Below, piece by piece: positions 1,480 through 8,535 of a stretch of 8,535 nucleotides of DNA (position 1 is its first letter; each line of letters begins with the position of its first letter). Both the position numbers and the translations under genes were made by a program. Source of the stretch: Naegleria gruberi (lineage: Eukaryota); the NCBI GenBank assembly GCA_000004985.1, contig GG739063.1. The stretch is one strand, 5' to 3'. A model generated the notes under the pieces. It worked only from the letters and a program-made list of their open reading frames with translations, was not told the DNA's origin and made no database searches.

Positions 1480-1560
1480 CGTTGAGGATGGGATTCGAAC
1501 CCACGCGGATTACTCCACCAACTTAGCAGGCTGGCGCCTTAACCACTCGGCCACCTCAAC
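1480..1560 (-). tRNA. tRNA-Ser, anticodon GCU, reading AGY codons. It is type II with a long variable arm and has no intron.
   Basis: The reverse complement reads GTTGAGGTGGCCGAGTGGTTAAGGCGCCAGCCTGCTAAGTTGGTGGAGTAATCCGCGTGGGTTCGAATCCCATCCTCAAC plus a G discriminator. The 7-bp acceptor stem GTTGAGG/CCTCAAC pairs perfectly. The D-arm GCC-GAGTGGTTAAG-GGC carries the A box TGGCCGAGTGG. The anticodon stem CCAGC/GTTGG has one G:U pair, and the loop CTGCTAA gives anticodon GCT. The variable arm is 13 nt. The T-arm GTGGG-TTCGAAT-CCCAT carries the B box GGTTCGAATCC. The discriminator G73 fits Ser. CCA is not encoded, as expected for a eukaryote. Confidence 0.93.
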
Positions 1561-1737: not shown

Positions 1738-4700
1738 NNNNNNNNNNNNNNNNNNNNNNNNNNNNNNNNNNNNNNNNNNNNNNNNNNNNNNNNNNNNNNN
1801 NNNNNNNNNNNNNNNNNNNNNNNNNNNNNNNNNNNNNNNNNNNNNNNNNNNNNNNNNNNNNNNNNNNNNNNNNNNNNNNNNNNNNNNNNNNNNNNNNNNN
1901 NNNNNNNNNNNNNNNNNNNNNNNNNNNNNNNNNNNNNNNNNNNNNNNNNNNNNNNNNNNNNNNNNNNNNNNNNNNNNNNNNNNNNNNNNNNNNNNNNNNN
2001 NNNNNNNNNNNNNNNNNNNNNNNNNNNNNNNNNNNNNNNNNNNNNNNNNNNNNNNNNNNNNNNNNNNNNNNNNNNNNNNNNNNNNNNNNNNNNNNNNNNN
2101 NNNNNNNNNNNNNNNNNNNNNNNNNNNNNNNNNNNNNNNNNNNNNNNNNNNNNNNNNNNNNNNNNNNNNNNNNNNNNNNNNNNNNNNNNNNNNNNNNNNN
2201 NNNNNNNNNNNNNNNNNNNNNNNNNNNNNNNNNNNNNNNNNNNNNNNNNNNNNNNNNNNNNNNNNNNNNNNNNNNNNNNNNNNNNNNNNNNNNNNNNNNN
2301 NNNNNNNNNNNNNNNNNNNNNNNNNNNNNNNNNNNNNNNNNNNNNNNNNNNNNNNNNNNNNNNNNNNNNNNNNNNNNNNNNNNNNNNNNNNNNNNNNNNN
2401 NNNNNNNNNNNNNNNNNNNNNNNNNNNNNNNNNNNNNNNNNNNNNNNNNNNNNNNNNNNNNNNNNNNNNNNNNNNNNNNNNNNNNNNNNNNNNNNNNNNN
2501 NNNNNNNNNNNNNNNNNNNNNNNNNNNNNNNNNNNNNNNNNNNNNNNNNNNNNNNNNNNNNNNNNNNNNNNNNNNNNNNNNNNNNNNNNNNNNNNNNNNN
2601 NNNNNNNNNNNNNNNNNNNNNNNNNNNNNNNNNNNNNNNNNNNNNNNNNNNNNNNNNNNNNNNNNNNNNNNNNNNNNNNNNNNNNNNNNNNNNNNNNNNN
2701 NNNNNNNNNNNNNNNNNNNNNNNNNNNNNNNNNNNNNNNNNNNNNNNNNNNNNNNNNNNNNNNNNNNNNNNNNNNNNNNNNNNNNNNNNNNNNNNNNNNN
2801 NNNNNNNNNNNNNNNNNNNNNNNNNNNNNNNNNNNNNNNNNNNNNNNNNNNNNNNNNNNNNNNNNNNNNNNNNNNNNNNNNNNNNNNNNNNNNNNNNNNN
2901 NNNNNNNNNNNNNNNNNNNNNNNNNNNNNNNNNNNNNNNNNNNNNNNNNNNNNNNNNNNNNNNNNNNNNNNNNNNNNNNNNNNNNNNNNNNNNNNNNNNN
3001 NNNNNNNNNNNNNNNNNNNNNNNNNNNNNNNNNNNNNNNNNNNNNNNNNNNNNNNNNNNNNNNNNNNNNNNNNNNNNNNNNNNNNNNNNNNNNNNNNNNN
3101 NNNNNNNNNNNNNNNNNNNNNNNNNNNNNNNNNNNNNNNNNNNNNNNNNNNNNNNNNNNNNNNNNNNNNNNNNNNNNNNNNNNNNNNNNNNNNNNNNNNN
3201 NNNNNNNNNNNNNNNNNNNNNNNNNNNNNNNNNNNNNNNNNNNNNNNNNNNNNNNNNNNNNNNNNNNNNNNNNNNNNNNNNNNNNNNNNNNNNNNNNNNN
3301 NNNNNNNNNNNNNNNNNNNNNNNNNNNNNNNNNNNNNNNNNNNNNNNNNNNNNNNNNNNNNNNNNNNNNNNNNNNNNNNNNNNNNNNNNNNNNNNNNNNN
3401 NNNNNNNNNNNNNNNNNNNNNNNNNNNNNNNNNNNNNNNNNNNNNNNNNNNNNNNNNNNNNNNNNNNNNNNNNNNNNNNNNNNNNNNNNNNNNNNNNNNN
3501 NNNNNNNNNNNNNNNNNNNNNNNNNNNNNNNNNNNNNNNNNNNNNNNNNNNNNNNNNNNNNNNNNNNNNNNNNNNNNNNNNNNNNNNNNNNNNNNNNNNN
3601 NNNNNNNNNNNNNNNNNNNNNNNNNNNNNNNNNNNNNNNNNNNNNNNNNNNNNNNNNNNNNNNNNNNNNNNNNNNNNNNNNNNNNNNNNNNNNNNNNNNN
3701 NNNNNNNNNNNNNNNNNNNNNNNNNNNNNNNNNNNNNNNNNNNNNNNNNNNNNNNNNNNNNNNNNNNNNNNNNNNNNNNNNNNNNNNNNNNNNNNNNNNN
3801 NNNNNNNNNNNNNNNNNNNNNNNNNNNNNNNNNNNNNNNNNNNNNNNNNNNNNNNNNNNNNNNNNNNNNNNNNNNNNNNNNNNNNNNNNNNNNNNNNNNN
3901 NNNNNNNNNNNNNNNNNNNNNNNNNNNNNNNNNNNNNNNNNNNNNNNNNNNNNNNNNNNNNNNNNNNNNNNNNNNNNNNNNNNNNNNNNNNNNNNNNNNN
4001 NNNNNNNNNNNNNNNNNNNNNNNNNNNNNNNNNNNNNNNNNNNNNNNNNNNNNNNNNNNNNNNNNNNNNNNNNNNNNNNNNNNNNNNNNNNNNNNNNNNN
4101 NNNNNNNNNNNNNNNNNNNNNNNNNNNNNNNNNNNNNNNNNNNNNNNNNNNNNNNNNNNNNNNNNNNNNNNNNNNNNNNNNNNNNNNNNNNNNNNNNNNN
4201 NNNNNNNNNNNNNNNNNNNNNNNNNNNNNNNNNNNNNNNNNNNNNNNNNNNNNNNNNNNNNNNNNNNNNNNNNNNNNNNNNNNNNNNNNNNNNNNNNNNN
4301 NNNNNNNNNNNNNNNNNNNNNNNNNNNNNNNNNNNNNNNNNNNNNNNNNNNNNNNNNNNNNNNNNNNNNNNNNNNNNNNNNNNNNNNNNNNNNNNNNNNN
4401 NNNNNNNNNNNNNNNNNNNNNNNNNNNNNNNNNNNNNNNNNNNNNNNNNNNNNNNNNNNNNNNNNNNNNNNNNNNNNNNNNNNNNNNNNNNNNNNNNNNN
4501 NNNNNNNNNNNNNNNNNNNNNNNNNNNNNNNNNNNNNNNNNNNNNNNNNNNNNNNNNNNNNNNNNNNNNNNNNNNNNNNNNNNNNNNNNNNNNNNNNNNN
4601 NNNNNNNNNNNNNNNNNNNNNNNNNNNNNNNNNNNNNNNNNNNNNNNNNNNNNNNNNNNNNNNNNNNNNNNNNNNNNNNNNNNNNNNNNNNNNNNNNNNN

Positions 4701-6631
4701 NNNNNNNNNNNNNNNNNNNNNNNNNNNNNNNNNNNNNNNNNNNNNNNNNNNNNNNNNNNNNNNNNNNNNNNNNNNNNNNNNNNNNNNNNNNNNNNNNNNN
4801 NNNNNNNNNNNNNNNNNNNNNNNNNNNNNNNNNNNNNNNNNNNNNNNNNNNNNNNNNNNNNNNNNNNNNNNNNNNNNNNNNNNNNNNNNNNNNNNNNNNN
4901 NNNNNNNNNNNNNNNNNNNNNNNNNNNNNNNNNNNNNNNNNNNNNNNNNNNNNNNNNNNNNNNNNNNNNNNNNNNNNNNNNNNNNNNNNNNNNNNNNNNN
5001 NNNNNNNNNNNNNNNNNNNNNNNNNNNNNNNNNNNNNNNNNNNNNNNNNNNNNNNNNNNNNNNNNNNNNNNNNNNNNNNNNNNNNNNNNNNNNNNNNNNN
5101 NNNNNNNNNNNNNNNNNNNNNNNNNNNNNNNNNNNNNNNNNNNNNNNNNNNNNNNNNNNNNNNNNNNNNNNNNNNNNNNNNNNNNNNNNNNNNNNNNNNN
5201 NNNNNNNNNNNNNNNNNNNNNNNNNNNNNNNNNNNNNNNNNNNNNNNNNNNNNNNNNNNNNNNNNNNNNNNNNNNNNNNNNNNNNNNNNNNNNNNNNNNN
5301 NNNNNNNNNNNNNNNNNNNNNNNNNNNNNNNNNNNNNNNNNNNNNNNNNNNNNNNNNNNNNNNNNNNNNNNNNNNNNNNNNNNNNNNNNNNNNNNNNNNN
5401 NNNNNNNNNNNNNNNNNNNNNNNNNNNNNNNNNNNNNNNNNNNNNNNNNNNNNNNNNNNNNNNNNNNNNNNNNNNNNNNNNNNNNNNNNNNNNNNNNNNN
5501 NNNNNNNNNNNNNNNNNNNNNNNNNNNNNNNNNNNNNNNNNNNNNNNNNNNNNNNNNNNNNNNNNNNNNNNNNNNNNNNNNNNNNNNNNNNNNNNNNNNN
5601 NNNNNNNNNNNNNNNNNNNNNNNNNNNNNNNNNNNNNNNNNNNNNNNNNNNNNNNNNNNNNNNNNNNNNNNNNNNNNNNNNNNNNNNNNNNNNNNNNNNN
5701 NNNNNNNNNNNNNNNNNNNNNNNNNNNNNNNNNNNNNNNNNNNNNNNNNNNNNNNNNNNNNNNNNNNNNNNNNNNNNNNNNNNNNNNNNNNNNNNNNNNN
5801 NNNNNNNNNNNNNNNNNNNNNNNNNNNNNNNNNNNNNNNNNNNNNNNNNNNNNNNNNNNNNNNNNNNNNNNNNNNNNNNNNNNNNNNNNNNNNNNNNNNN
5901 NNNNNNNNNNNNNNNNNNNNNNNNNNNNNNNNNNNNNNNNNNNNNNNNNNNNNNNNNNNNNNNNNNNNNNNNNNNNNNNNNNNNNNNNNNNNNNNNNNNN
6001 NNNNNNNNNNNNNNNNNNNNNNNNNNNNNNNNNNNNNNNNNNNNNNNNNNNNNNNNNNNNNNNNNNNNNNNNNNNNNNNNNNNNNNNNNNNNNNNNNNNN
6101 NNNNNNNNNNNNNNNNNNNNNNNNNNNNNNNNNNNNNNNNNNNNNNNNNNNNNNNNNNNNNNNNNNNNNNNNNNNNNNNNNNNNNNNNNNNNNNNNNNNN
6201 NNNNNNNNNNNNNNNNNNNNNNNNNNNNNNNNNNNNNNNNNNNNNNNNNNNNNNNNNNNNNNNNNNNNNNNNNNNNNNNNNNNNNNNNNNNNNNNNNNNN
6301 NNNNNNNNNNNNNNNNNNNNNNNNNNNNNNNNNNNNNNNNNNNNNNNNNNNNNNNNNNNNNNNNNNNNNNNNNNNNNNNNNNNNNNNNNNNNNNNNNNNN
6401 NNNNNNNNNNNNNNNNNNNNNNNNNNNNNNNNNNNNNNNNNNNNNNNNNNNNNNNNNNNNNNNNNNNNNNNNNNNNNNNNNNNNNNNNNNNNNNNNNNNN
6501 NNNNNNNNNNNNNNNNNNNNNNNNNNNNNNNNNNNNNNNNNNNNNNNNNNNNNNNNNNNNNNNNNNNNNNNNNNNNNNNNNNNNNNNNNNNNNNNNNNNN
6601 NNNNNNNNNNNNNNNNNNNNNNNNNNNNNNN
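1738..6631. other. Run of 4894 N, either an assembly gap or a hard-masked segment. No sequence information is available.
   Basis: N runs uninterrupted from 1738 to 6631. Every long ORF crossing it (1655..6652, 1677..6644 and 1733..6847) is poly-X and therefore an artefact. Confidence 0.99.
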
Positions 6632-6847
6632 CATCAAGGAATAGGTACTTGATGTTATCTCAGCTACCTGTTCCGAAAGGTGGCTCATTAAGCACCATTC
6701 GCTTACCCTGTTATCAGAGTTTTGTAACAGTGTTTTAAAGCCTTGTTTGTTGATTTCCATGAACTTGCTCTTCCAACTCTGTAGTGTGAATAAGCTCATT
6801 TTTTTCAGTTTGGGCACTAACGAAAACTTTTTTTGGAAATATTCCAT
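6632..6847 (-). CDS. N-terminal 72 codons of an unknown protein-coding gene whose body lies in the N-run
   Basis: From ATG (complement of 6845..6847) the minus frame stays open into the gap: MEYFQKKFSLVPKLKKMSLFTLQSWKSKFMEINKQGFKTLLQNSDNRVSEWCLMSHLSEQVAEITSSTYSLM. Upstream is a repeat-bearing, TATA-containing intergenic region. I could not recognise a family from this fragment. Confidence 0.4.
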
Positions 6848-6880: not shown

Positions 6881-6952
6881 AGTATTTTATTTCCACAACA
6901 CATGGTGGTAATTTAGTATTTTATTTAGTATTTTATTTCCACAACACATGGT
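6881..6952. repeat. Perfect 26-bp direct repeat AGTATTTTATTTCCACAACACATGGT at 6881..6906 and 6927..6952. An extra partial copy TAGTATTTTATT sits at 6914..6925.
   Basis: Read directly from the sequence. The repeat lies 34 to 105 bp upstream of the minus-strand ATG at 6847, inside a divergent promoter region. Confidence 0.85.
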
Positions 6953-7007: not shown

Positions 7008-7020
7008 TATAATAAAAAAA
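7008..7020 (+). promoter_or_regulatory. TATA-like element TATAATAAAAAAA, about 100 bp upstream of ATG 7117. The reverse complement (TTTATTATAC) could also serve the divergent minus-strand gene.
   Basis: The TATAATAA sequence is followed by an A7 tract. Downstream, 7021..7116 is A/C-rich and almost G-free on the plus strand, which is typical of yeast 5' leaders. Confidence 0.4.
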
Positions 7021-7116
7021 TGATGCAACAACACGCACACAACATCCACCTCCCACAAACTACATCCCACAACATGACTTCAACACTAACAACAAACAAA
7101 TAATCAAACATCAACA

Positions 7117-7201
7117 ATGAGCATTCCACATATGTTTAAATGGAATTGGAAGAAGTCTTCTGATATTACCGCTATCAAGAAGAAGAAACCAACAAAACGT
7201 G
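7117..7201 (+). CDS. Putative exon 1 of the plus-strand gene (MSIPHMFKWNWKKSSDITAIKKKKPTKR + G, phase 1), ending at the donor G|GTAGGT
   Basis: This is the first ATG downstream of the TATA element and leader. Left unspliced it stops after 31 codons at TAG 7210. GTAGGT at 7202..7207 is followed by AT-rich, non-coding-looking sequence. Confidence 0.35.
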
Positions 7202-7289
7202 GTAGGTTGTAGTTTGTATGATAATTAATTAAATAATTAATTAATCGGATAAGTGAACATTGTTAACAACCAGAGAGATATAATTCTAG

Positions 7290-7424
7290 ATATGGATGAC
7301 ACTTTAAATACAATGCCAAACGAAGGAACTATTCAACATTGGCCACTTACTTCTAATCAAGCCTCCAATTTTTCATTACCAACCATTAATTTTGTACCAT
7401 TGGAAGAACCAACACAAAATGAAA
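7290..7424 (+). CDS. Putative exon 2, reading (D)MDDTLNTMPNEGTIQHWPLTSNQASNFSLPTINFVPLEEPTQNE + A. The acceptor is CTAG| at 7288..7289, or alternatively GAGAG| at 7276..7277.
   Basis: This is the frame of the tracked ORF 7253..7444. Both candidate acceptors restore the frame from exon 1. Codon usage is yeast-preferred (five CCA). The exon ends at a canonical GTATGT donor at 7425..7430, after which the sequence turns abruptly into low-complexity AT-rich DNA. Confidence 0.4.
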
Positions 7425-7549
7425 GTATGTTTCATAATACTTAATATTTTAATATTTGAAAGCCTTCTCATATTTGGCTCTTCTTACACAACCCTCTCCT
7501 CCAAGTAAGTATTTCTTATTTAAATTTAAATTTATAATTTATAATTTAG

Positions 7550-8187
7550 AAATTAATTATCAATGTGGAAGAGTAATGGTTTCTAATAACAATATGTGGA
7601 ATACTGATAATGATACAACATACTGTCTTTCTGATAATGAATCTAAAGCCTTAATGGAAAGAATTCAATTTTTTATCACACCAAATGGTGGTGAAGACAC
7701 ATTCAACATTAAATTGTCACCAGCCTCTCCTAAATATAATCACACAAGAGTCAAGGAAGCCAAGACATTAATAGAAAGAAGTGTGGTAGCAAGAATGAAT
7801 CCTGATTCAGCAAGAAATGTAACTTGGAGACAGAATTTATGTTTTACACTTCCATTTGGTCCAATTTCAGATTTATTCTTCTCTCAGTTAACTCAATCCA
7901 AACCATCATCTGTTAAACTTACATCTAAGTATTACTATATGGAAGGCAAATCCTCTAAAGGTTTGAAACTTGATACAAAAGTGTATGTATGGGATGAAGA
8001 TAATATGCCAAGTTTAAAATCTGAACATTGGTTTTTGAAAAAGTGGAATGGGAAGAATGATACGTTTCGAGCTAGATGTATTCAGTTTACTTTAACTTAC
8101 AGGCCTCAACTCGACATTATTCGTGTCGAATTTAAATATACAACTCAAAAGTGGAACAATATTCTACAAGCTTGGCAAGATATGTAA
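7550..8187 (+). CDS. Terminal exon and core ORF of an unknown protein of about 212 aa. It is part of the tracked ORF 7456..8187. The acceptor is TTTAG| at 7548..7549.
   Basis: The frame is open to TAA 8185..8187. It reads (K)INYQCGRVMVSNNNMWNTDNDTTYCLSDNESKALMERIQFFITPNGGEDTFNIKLSPASPKYNHTRVKEAKTLIERSVVARMNPDSARNVTWRQNLCFTLPFGPISDLFFSQLTQSKPSSVKLTSKYYYMEGKSSKGLKLDTKVYVWDEDNMPSLKSEHWFLKKWNGKNDTFRARCIQFTLTYRPQLDIIRVEFKYTTQKWNNILQAWQDM*. I recognise no conserved domain. The leading part of the tracked ORF, MKAFSYLALLTQPSPPSKYFLFKFKFIIYNLE, looks like translated intron. An AATAAA lies just 3' of the stop at 8198..8203. Confidence 0.65.
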
Positions 8188-8279
8188 GATGTAAGTAATA
8201 AATCTTCATACCAAAACTCAAATATCCTTAATTGAAATTTCAAGTTGTCGAATCAAGGATCCAATTAAGATGTTGGCAG

Positions 8280-8305
8280 CCCGCCAAAAGTTAAACCCGC
8301 CAAAA
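8280..8305. repeat. Short direct repeat CCCGCCAAAA at 8280..8289 and 8296..8305. It forms a GC-rich island about 35 to 60 bp upstream of ATG 8338.
   Basis: Read directly from the sequence. It is followed by the near-palindrome CCAAAATTTGG at 8300..8310. Confidence 0.5.
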
Positions 8306-8337: not shown

Positions 8338-8535
8338 ATGGTACCACCAAGAAACCGTCCATCAGAATCAATATTAACAAGACGAACAAGACGTTCCACT
8401 TGTGAGGCTTTGGAGGCAAATTATGTTAGACCAAACAATAATGCTTACTTCACGGACCAGTATGAGAAAGTTCCGTATGTAGTTAGGTCTGAAGTAGACA
8501 CACAAATGTTGAATTGTTGGTTTACTGTTTTCTTT
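8338..8535 (+). CDS. Possible 5' part of a plus-strand gene that continues beyond the window end, with 66 codons open and no stop
   Basis: ATG 8338 immediately follows an in-frame TAG at 8332..8334. It reads MVPPRNRPSESILTRRTRRSTCEALEANYVRPNNNAYFTDQYEKVPYVVRSEVDTQMLNCWFTVFF... A stop-free run of 66 codons is unlikely by chance in AT-rich DNA, at roughly 2%. A GTATGT at 8474..8479 lies inside it and could be a donor. I recognise no family. Confidence 0.3.
   Translation, partial: MVPPRNRPSESILTRRTRRSTCEALEANYVRPNNNAYFTDQYEKVPYVVRSEVDTQMLNCWFTVFF

What the first reader, a model, noticed from the sequence alone, without database searches (positions are those of the whole stretch)
7117..8187. Three-exon gene model with two phase-consistent introns, encoding a protein with no recognisable family
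The tracked ORFs 7253..7444 and 7456..8187 sit in different frames, and the ORF from the first post-TATA ATG (7117) is only 31 codons. Two splice events reconcile all three. The first uses donor G|GTAGGT at 7202 and acceptor CTAG| at 7289. The second uses a canonical yeast donor A|GTATGT at 7425 and acceptor TTTAG| at 7549. Each junction restores the reading frame exactly, which has about a 1 in 9 chance of happening for both at random. In both cases coding-like, CCA-rich sequence switches sharply to low-complexity AT-rich sequence right at the donor. Two introns in one gene is unusual for a budding-yeast-like genome. The spliced product is about 290 aa. It has a basic N-terminus (KKKKPTKR) that looks like a nuclear localisation signal, and its C-terminal 200 aa are not recognisable to me. 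Neither intron has a TACTAAC branch site; the best candidates are TGTTAAC at 7262..7268 and ACTTAAT near 7438. Acceptor choice for intron 1 is also ambiguous: 7277 and 7289 are both in frame.
Basis: partly seen in the sequence, partly recalled or inferred. Interest (0 to 1): 0.55.

Follow-up and report, generated by a model that had tools for sequence, protein, structure and literature searches.

The report
Annotated four-exon Naegleria gruberi gene

Summary
The window is a complete 8535-nt Naegleria gruberi scaffold, not yeast DNA. The gene is already annotated as NAEGRDRAFT_76646 (XP_002668442.1, 311 aa, "predicted protein").

The annotated model has four exons: 7117-7201, 7254-7424, 7463-7504 and 7550-8187. 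Its introns are 52, 38 and 45 nt, and its translation reproduces the database protein exactly. It skipped a 42-nt mini-exon and chose acceptor 7289 instead of 7253.

An orthologous metagenome locus (63% identity) has the same 42-nt mini-exon with the same flanking intron positions and phases. Contiguous-ORF homologues are collinear across both mini-exon junctions and share the N-terminus. Exon 4 has dN/dS of about 0.16.

The protein has a low-complexity, basic N-terminal part and a C-terminal alpha/beta domain of about 185 aa. AlphaFold models that domain confidently, but it has no Pfam match and no convincing PDB or viral fold match. Function is unknown.

The gene occurs in several near-identical copies in N. 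gruberi, always next to a second unknown gene of about 700 aa.

Low interest: the gene is already annotated and its function stays unassigned.

The parts
7008..7020 (+). TATA-like element TATAATAAAAAAA, about 100 nt upstream of the start codon
   Evidence: Read directly from the sequence. Its function is inferred. The L001 orthologue has no such run.
7074..7103 (+). Short upstream ORF (MTSTLTTNK*) in the presumed 5' leader
   Evidence: L001 has a comparable uORF at 230-265 (MTTSIPHINNK*), also ending NK-TAA shortly before the main ATG. The significance was not tested.
7117..7201 (+). Exon 1 (85 nt, phase-1 end): MSIPHMFKWNWKKSSDITAIKKKKPTKR + G. It contains a conserved N-terminal motif and a basic, NLS-like patch.
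   Evidence: The translation matches XP_002668442.1. The N-terminus is conserved in L001 (MNNIPYMFEWDLK) and P0014 (SIPYTFKFEWK, E 0.01). Over 10 codons pN is 0.19 and pS 0.82.
7202..7253 (+). Intron 1 (52 nt, GTAGGT...TAAG, 21% GC). Alternative in-frame acceptors lie at 7277 and 7289.
   Evidence: 7253 is the acceptor of the GenBank model and the first usable AG after the AT-only stretch. It is not independently verified.
7254..7424 (+). Exon 2 (171 nt): VNIVNNQRDIILDMDD...NFSLPTINFVPLEEPTQNE
   Evidence: The 3' part is conserved in L001 (NFTLPTLDFISLEDTTISE), with the donor at the same position and phase.
7425..7462 (+). Intron 2 (38 nt, GTATGT...AAAG, 16% GC)
   Evidence: L001 has a 43-nt intron (607-649, GTAAGT...CAG) at the same position and phase.
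7463..7504 (+).
   Evidence: L001 also has a 42-nt exon (650-691), encoding SFSFLSLLTGPSI. Of 11 aligned codons, 3 are identical, 5 synonymous and 3 non-synonymous, and 11 of 1000 shuffles reach the observed score. The contiguous ORF P0013 aligns without gaps across both junctions.
7505..7549 (+). Intron 3 (45 nt, GTAAGT...TTAG, 9% GC). It has no in-frame stop, so retaining it would add 15 aa.
   Evidence: The L001 equivalent (692-745, 54 nt, GTAGGT...CAG) has in-frame stops and a CTAAC branch-like motif.
7550..8187 (+). Exon 4 (638 nt including the TAA stop)
   Evidence: It is 62% identical to L001 at the amino-acid level, with dN/dS about 0.16.
7630..8184 (+). Conserved C-terminal alpha/beta domain (about aa 127-311) of an uncharacterised family
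8197..8202 (+). AATAAA poly(A)-signal-like hexamer, 10 nt after the stop codon
   Evidence: TGTAAGT(T)AATAAA is conserved at the same place in L001. Function is inferred.
8280..8305 (+). Two CCCGCCAAAA motifs (E2F-consensus-like on the other strand) in the promoter of the downstream partner gene
   Evidence: Two matches found where 0.00 are expected. There is one at the orthologous place in L001.
8338..8535 (+). Start of downstream gene B, which runs off the scaffold. It is the syntenic, co-duplicated partner of unknown function, about 700 aa.
   Evidence: 46% identity, E 3e-16, to L001 1517 onward. It is fused with gene A in model P0007. No Pfam, PDB, PHROG or NCBIfam match.

Best explanation
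This is the already-annotated Naegleria gruberi gene NAEGRDRAFT_76646 (XP_002668442.1). It is a four-exon, three-intron nuclear gene: exons 7117-7201, 7254-7424, 7463-7504 and 7550-8187, with introns of 52, 38 and 45 nt whose donors all fit GTAnGT. It encodes a 311-aa protein under purifying selection.

Shown: the protein has a conserved N-terminal motif (M..IP.xFxW) followed by a basic patch, then a low-complexity N/S/T/P/Q-rich linker that includes the mini-exon peptide, then a C-terminal alpha/beta domain of about 185 aa. That domain belongs to an uncharacterised family with close members in Naegleria-like organisms and Willaertia.

Inferred: the basic patch acts as a nuclear-localisation or nucleic-acid-binding element. 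The C-terminal domain is a binding module that works together with the product of the adjacent gene B, with which it is syntenic across species and co-duplicated within N. gruberi.
For: Identity and gene model:
- The protein search hit N. gruberi predicted proteins at E 1e-180.
- Cluster member P0005 sits on a contig of exactly 8535 nt. The four-exon translation equals P0005 exactly.
- Donors are GTAGGT, GTATGT and GTAAGT. Introns are 9-21% GC against 32-45% for exons.

Orthologue L001:
- It has a 42-nt mini-exon flanked by GTAAGT..CAG and GTAGGT..CAG introns at the same positions and phases.
- The mini-exon shows mostly synonymous codon changes, and 11 of 1000 shuffles reach the observed score.

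Other homologues:
- The contiguous ORF P0013 aligns without gaps over VPLEEPTQNE|TFSYLALLTQPSPP|KIN.
- P0014, a contiguous ORF on a metagenome contig, shares the N-terminus.

Selection, fold and context:
- dN/dS is 0.16 over 210 codons of exon 4.
- The AF2 model of the domain is confident.
- The basic patch is conserved in L001, P0014 and P0039.
- Gene B is syntenic. Both genes are present on several N. gruberi scaffolds.
Against: - No transcript evidence could be obtained. N. gruberi records are not in the contig index.
- The intron 1 acceptor (7253, 7277 or 7289) is not resolved by comparison. In L001, exon 1 and exon 2 cannot be joined by one good canonical intron.
- 38 nt is a very short intron.
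- Skipping the mini-exon preserves the frame in both species, so a skipped isoform is possible.
- The functional part rests only on sequence features and gene neighbourhood. No family, fold or literature match supports it.
Confidence: 0.8

Rival explanations
1. The first reader's three-exon model (7117-7201, 7290-7424, 7550-8187; 285 aa) is the main mRNA. On this view the 42-nt segment is intronic and intron 1 ends at 7289 or 7277.
For: Both junctions are in frame. A TGTTAAC branch-like motif at 7261-7267 lies 10-22 nt upstream of 7277 and 7289. The 42-nt exon can be skipped without breaking the frame in both the window and L001.
Against: A consensus GTAAGT donor at 7505 and an AG at 7462 lie inside the proposed intron. 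The 42-nt segment is 45% GC, against 9-16% for its flanks. It is conserved as coding sequence, at the same length, in L001. It is collinear with contiguous ORF P0013. The GenBank models of all full-length paralogues include it and use the 7253-type acceptor.
Confidence: 0.1
2. Only exon 4 is coding, with the protein starting at Met 7576 or 7594, as in paralogue models P0002 and P0007. The upstream ORFs would then be leader sequence or uORFs.
For: Two GenBank paralogue models start at MWNTDND. The AF2-structured domain lies entirely in exon 4. More distant family members consist of the C-terminal core alone.
Against: The exon-1 peptide, the basic patch, the end of exon 2 and the mini-exon are conserved at the protein level in L001, P0013, P0014 and P0039. 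Splice sites are conserved in L001. P0014 is one contiguous ORF that carries both the N-terminal motif and the domain.
Confidence: 0.05
3. Gene A and downstream gene B form a recently amplified cassette, either a mobile or selfish element or part of a larger repeat, rather than a single-copy host gene. This is compatible with the gene model above.
For: Near-identical copies of A lie on five N. gruberi scaffolds (6144, 8124, 8535, 222118 and 348446 nt) and a gene B fragment (P0008) on a sixth (499907 nt). Their C-terminal 197 aa are identical or nearly so. Three of the six scaffolds are tiny, as is typical of unresolved repeats. A and B are adjacent in every copy that is long enough to show it, and in L001. 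Neither protein matches any known family.
Against: No transposase, integrase or reverse-transcriptase signature was found. No terminal repeats were found in the little flanking sequence available. The small scaffolds could be haplotype variants. Homologues L002 and L003 lack gene B downstream. dN/dS of 0.16 indicates long-term constraint.
Confidence: 0.25

Closest known systems
GenBank/JGI gene model NAEGRDRAFT_76646 (XP_002668442.1 / EFC35698.1, UniProt D2W5F4), 'predicted protein' of Naegleria gruberi
   Same: It is the same locus.
   Different: Nothing differs.
N. gruberi paralogues NAEGRDRAFT_76788, _71313 and _53739, and partial model EFC35653.1
   Same: They are 99-100% identical over the shared parts and have the same downstream gene.
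   Different: There is a one-codon indel (RDNIILD versus RDIILD). The annotated models are inconsistent: some are exon-4-only, one has a 15-aa internal deletion, and one is fused with gene B. This shows the automated models are not all reliable.
Willaertia magna hypothetical proteins KAL9654772.1, KAL9657962.1 and KAL9654553.1, and the metagenomic homologues P0003, P0013 and P0014
   Same: They share the same C-terminal domain at 36-63% identity. P0014 and P0039 also share the N-terminal motif and basic patch.
   Different: P0013 and P0014 are contiguous ORFs with no introns in the region. Their linker regions differ in length. Gene B is not seen downstream in L002 or L003.
Archaeal-virus small beta-sheet proteins (AFV1 ORF99 3df6, SIRV3 AcrID1 6exp, SIFV0014 2h36)

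Membership tests
Annotated gene NAEGRDRAFT_76646 of Naegleria gruberi | The spliced translation is identical to the database protein, on a contig of the same length | tested here: met
   The four-exon translation equals P0005 (311 aa). The contig is 8535 nt, the same as the window.
U2-type spliceosomal GT-AG introns | GT donor and AG acceptor with a consensus-like donor hexamer | tested here: met
   The boundaries are GTAGGT..AG, GTATGT..AG and GTAAGT..AG. In L001 they are GTAAGT..AG and GTAGGT..AG.
U2-type spliceosomal GT-AG introns | Removal restores one open reading frame | tested here: met
   The result is a 936-nt CDS with no internal stop. However, many alternative GT..AG pairs also keep the frame open.
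U2-type spliceosomal GT-AG introns | Intron position and phase are conserved in an orthologue | tested here: met
   Introns 2 and 3 are phase 1 at the same protein positions, flanking a 42-nt exon in both species. Intron 1 is inconclusive: no single good canonical intron joins exons 1 and 2 in L001.
U2-type spliceosomal GT-AG introns | A recognisable branch point 10-40 nt upstream of the acceptor | tested here: inconclusive
   Only loose YTNAY matches (TTAAT, CTTAAT) occur in the AT-rich introns. L001 intron 3 has CTAAC. No Naegleria branch-site consensus was available to me.
U2-type spliceosomal GT-AG introns | Junctions are observed in mRNA | not testable with these tools
   No N. gruberi transcript data were reachable. 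An RNA-seq data set exists under PRJEB23822 (PMC6142364).
Budding-yeast (Saccharomycotina) intron-containing gene | The genome is a budding yeast, with GTATGT donors and TACTAAC branch sites | tested here: not met
   The organism is Naegleria gruberi. There is no TACTAAC. Only one of the three donors is GTATGT.
Classical monopartite nuclear localisation signal | A K-K/R-X-K/R cluster in an exposed region | tested here: met
   KKKKPTKR in exon 1. Equivalent basic clusters occur in L001, P0014 and P0039. Nuclear import itself is not testable here.
Any Pfam, NCBIfam or PHROG family | A significant profile match | tested here: not met
   There were no matches for the protein, its homologues or the 28-member alignment.
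Transposable element (for the A+B cassette) | A transposase, integrase or RT domain, terminal repeats and target-site duplications | tested here: inconclusive
   No such domain was detected. No terminal repeats were seen in the available flanks. The other genomic copies could not be fetched to define the ends.

The most novel reading that the evidence does not exclude
The C-terminal domain defines a previously undescribed fold or family. It is shared by heterolobosean amoebae and by uncultured organisms, including at least one archaeon (P0020, on a contig carrying an archaeal ribosomal-protein operon). In Naegleria it travels with gene B as a recently amplified two-gene cassette, a new kind of mobile or selfish module.
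Probability: 0.15. Interest if true: 0.5.

Novelty: already known. Interest (0 to 1): 0.15.

Why it matters
It matters little beyond annotation quality. The locus shows that very short introns (38-52 nt) and a 42-nt mini-exon in Naegleria can be confirmed by comparison with an orthologue. It also shows that paralogous JGI models of the same gene are inconsistent with each other. The protein family (gene A) and its partner (gene B) have no functional annotation at all. The confident AF2 model, the absence of a convincing fold match and the multi-copy two-gene arrangement make the pair a reasonable, but not urgent, target for characterisation.

Tried and rejected
- AF2 with only 3 sequences gave pLDDT 29.5 and was discarded.
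- Foldseek against afdb50 was unavailable.
- PDB sequence searches found nothing useful.
- Pfam, PHROGs and NCBIfam gave no hits for gene A, gene B or their homologues.
- Exact-protein look-ups of N. gruberi products, whether spliced or exon-4 ORFs, were not on record. As a result, no other genomic copies and no transcript contigs could be fetched.
- Two metagenome scans and one viral scan for further loci found none. One query alignment was too diverse to search with.
- The second profile search in the 5.8-billion database returned few proteins. The gene B search returned one orthologue without annotation.
- A literature search for the six locus tags found nothing.
- The N. gruberi genome paper is not held, so genome-wide intron statistics could not be cited. 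PMC6142364 calls N. gruberi 'intron-rich'.
- I tried to join L001 exon 1 to exon 2 with a single canonical intron or an extra 13-nt exon. No convincing solution emerged (and manual reading). Possible causes are an assembly error, a non-canonical site or a decayed 5' end.
- The gene A-gene B fusion in model P0007 was rejected as the general structure. Gene B has its own conserved ATG and N-terminus. In L001 the gene A stop codon precedes the donor-like GTAAGT.

Full report
**What the window is**

The window has a run of 4894 N at 1738-6631, so only about 3.6 kb is real sequence, at about 33% GC.

The 90%-identity cluster contains P0005 (EFC35698.1 / XP_002668442.1, NAEGRDRAFT_76646, 311 aa). 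P0005 sits on a contig of exactly 8535 nt, which is the window length. The window is therefore a whole small scaffold of the N. gruberi assembly. The "budding-yeast-like" premise is wrong.

**Checking the observation**

Joining 7117-7201, 7290-7424 and 7550-8187 gives an open 285-aa product.

The "1 in 9" argument is weak. Enumeration shows 12 GT..AG pairs that keep exon 1 to exon 2 open, and 7 that keep exon 2 to exon 4 open. The compositional switch is real: exons are 32-45% GC and introns 9-21%.

**The gene model**

The exons 7117-7201, 7254-7424, 7463-7504 and 7550-8187 translate exactly to P0005. The three introns are:

| Intron | Coordinates | Length | Boundaries |
|---|---|---|---|
| 1 | 7202-7253 | 52 nt | GTAGGT..AG |
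| 2 | 7425-7462 | 38 nt | GTATGT..AG |
| 3 | 7505-7549 | 45 nt | GTAAGT..AG |

**Independent support from related sequences**

*Orthologue L001.* P0003 is 63% identical and lies on a 2606-nt metagenome contig, L001. L001 shows:
- an exon-1 equivalent (MNNIPYMFEWDLK...);
- an exon-2 end (NFTLPTLDFISLEDTTISE) with donor C|GTAAGT;
- a 43-nt intron, then an exon of exactly 42 nt (SFSFLSLLTGPSI);
- a 54-nt intron (GTAGGT...CTAAC...CAG) that contains in-frame stops;
- then exon 4.

Introns 2 and 3 are therefore conserved in position and phase.

*The mini-exon.* Of 11 aligned codons, 3 are identical, 5 synonymous and 3 non-synonymous.

*More distant homologues.* A library-wide HMMER search found additional homologues.
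- P0013 is a contiguous ORF on Logan contig L003. It aligns without gaps to VPLEEPTQNE|TFSYLALLTQPSPP|KIN, across both mini-exon junctions (E 0.013).
- P0014 is a contiguous ORF on JGI metagenome contig L002. It starts MVNVHSIPYTFKFEWKPSKK, matching exon 1 (E 0.01).

*Selection.* Exon 4 against L001 has dN/dS of about 0.16 over 210 codons. The first 10 alignable codons of exon 1 have pN 0.19 against pS 0.82.

Together these results rule out the refuting scenario in which the upstream ORFs are leader sequence or uORFs. They favour inclusion of the mini-exon.

**What is not settled**

- Intron 1 acceptor. 7253 is the annotated site and the first usable AG after an AT-only stretch. 7277 and 7289 are also in frame, and TGTTAAC (7261-7267) could serve them as a branch site.
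- L001 does not help with this. Its exon 1 and exon 2 cannot be joined by one convincing canonical intron.
- Exon-3 skipping preserves the frame in both species. Intron 3 of the window has no in-frame stop. Minor isoforms are therefore possible.
- No transcript data were reachable. An N. gruberi RNA-seq set exists under PRJEB23822 (PMC6142364).

**The protein**

No Pfam, NCBIfam or PHROG family matches the protein or any of 28 homologues. PDB sequence searches gave no significant match (the single hit to the A4 profile had E 0.25).

The N-terminal 125 aa or so is low-complexity. It carries a conserved N-terminal motif followed by a basic cluster (KKKKPTKR). Equivalent clusters occur in L001, P0014 and Willaertia P0039.

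AF2 with a 28-sequence alignment models the exon-4 product with pLDDT 83.5 and pTM 0.71. The model has a long helix packed on a six-stranded antiparallel sheet, and residues 60-211 are mostly above 90. A run with 3 sequences failed.

More distant family members (E 1e-8 to 1e-4) are short metagenomic proteins that share only the C-terminal core: W..LP.L...W.LKKW...[FY]RA...F.L.Y.....VRVEF.Y...W. One of them, P0020, lies on a 38.9-kb contig with an archaeal ribosomal-protein operon.

**Genomic context**

Gene A is followed, after 150 nt, by gene B (ATG 8338). The N-terminus of gene B is 46% identical to the gene downstream of the orthologue in L001. Gene B is about 700-750 aa and also has no family or structure match.

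Near-identical copies of gene A, with gene B wherever enough downstream sequence is annotated, lie on five N. gruberi scaffolds, and a gene B fragment lies on a sixth. Three of the six scaffolds are only 6-8.5 kb. This suggests a recently amplified cassette or unresolved haplotypes. No transposase signature or terminal repeats were found, and the other copies could not be fetched.

The paralogue models are mutually inconsistent: some are exon-4-only, one has an internal deletion, and one is an A-B fusion. The fusion is unlikely to be general.

**Verdict**

This is a real spliced gene. The locus is already annotated as a hypothetical protein. Its function remains unknown. The best guess is a nuclear-targeted protein with a binding domain that acts together with gene B. 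Interest is low. The only mildly novel aspects are the unannotated domain family with no convincing fold match and the multi-copy two-gene arrangement.

Noticed in passing
window 8280-8289 and 8296-8305; L001 1469-1478: There are two exact CCCGCCAAAA motifs (reverse complement TTTTGGCGGG, which resembles the E2F consensus) in the 150-nt spacer between the gene A stop and the gene B ATG. Chance expectation is 0.00. One copy sits at the orthologous place in L001.
   Followed up: partly
window 6881-6906 and 6927-6952: A perfect 26-nt direct repeat, AGTATTTTATTTCCACAACACATGGT, spaced 46 nt apart. It lies in the 269-nt divergent promoter region between a minus-strand ORF start (6847) and gene A.
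   Followed up: no
window 7074-7103 (and 7020-7103); L001 230-265 (and 194-265): A short upstream ORF ending ...NK-TAA lies 13-20 nt before the main ATG in both species (MTSTLTTNK* and MTTSIPHINNK*). The longer frame starts MMQQ / MQQ. This may be a conserved uORF, or simply CA-rich leader similarity.
   Followed up: partly
window 1480-1560 (minus strand): A tRNA-Ser(GCT) gene, found by both Rfam (62.4 bits) and ARAGORN.
   Followed up: yes
window 1738-6631: A run of 4894 N (a scaffold gap or masking). It creates three spurious ORFs of about 1700 aa in mechanical ORF lists. A minus-strand ORF starting at 6847 (MEYFQKKFSLVPKLKK...) runs into the gap.
   Followed up: no
window 8338-8535 and beyond; P0007, P0006, P0042; L001 1517-2605: Downstream gene B (about 700-750 aa) is syntenic in the orthologous contig and co-duplicated with gene A in N. 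gruberi. It has no Pfam, PDB, PHROG or NCBIfam match. GenBank model NAEGRDRAFT_53739 fuses A and B, probably wrongly.
   Followed up: partly
L004 (ENA ERZ25072490 contig, 38.9 kb), gene at 10001-10597: A distant homologue of the C-terminal domain (P0020, E 2.5e-7) lies on a contig with an archaeal ribosomal-protein operon (L14-L24-S4e-L5-S14-S8-L6). Next to it is a 410-aa ORF with a Seipin (PF06775) hit, which is unusual for an archaeon.
   Followed up: partly
L001 286-470: In the orthologue, exon 1 (frame of ATG 286) cannot be joined to exon 2 by any single canonical intron with a good donor. The strong GTAAGT at 428 is out of phase. Possible causes are an assembly error, a non-canonical splice or a decayed 5' end.
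   Followed up: partly
window 8190-8202; L001 about 1398-1412: TGTAAGT(T)AATAAA is conserved directly after the stop codon in both species. It is likely a poly(A) signal. Its GTAAGT explains why gene predictors sometimes splice gene A onto gene B.
   Followed up: no
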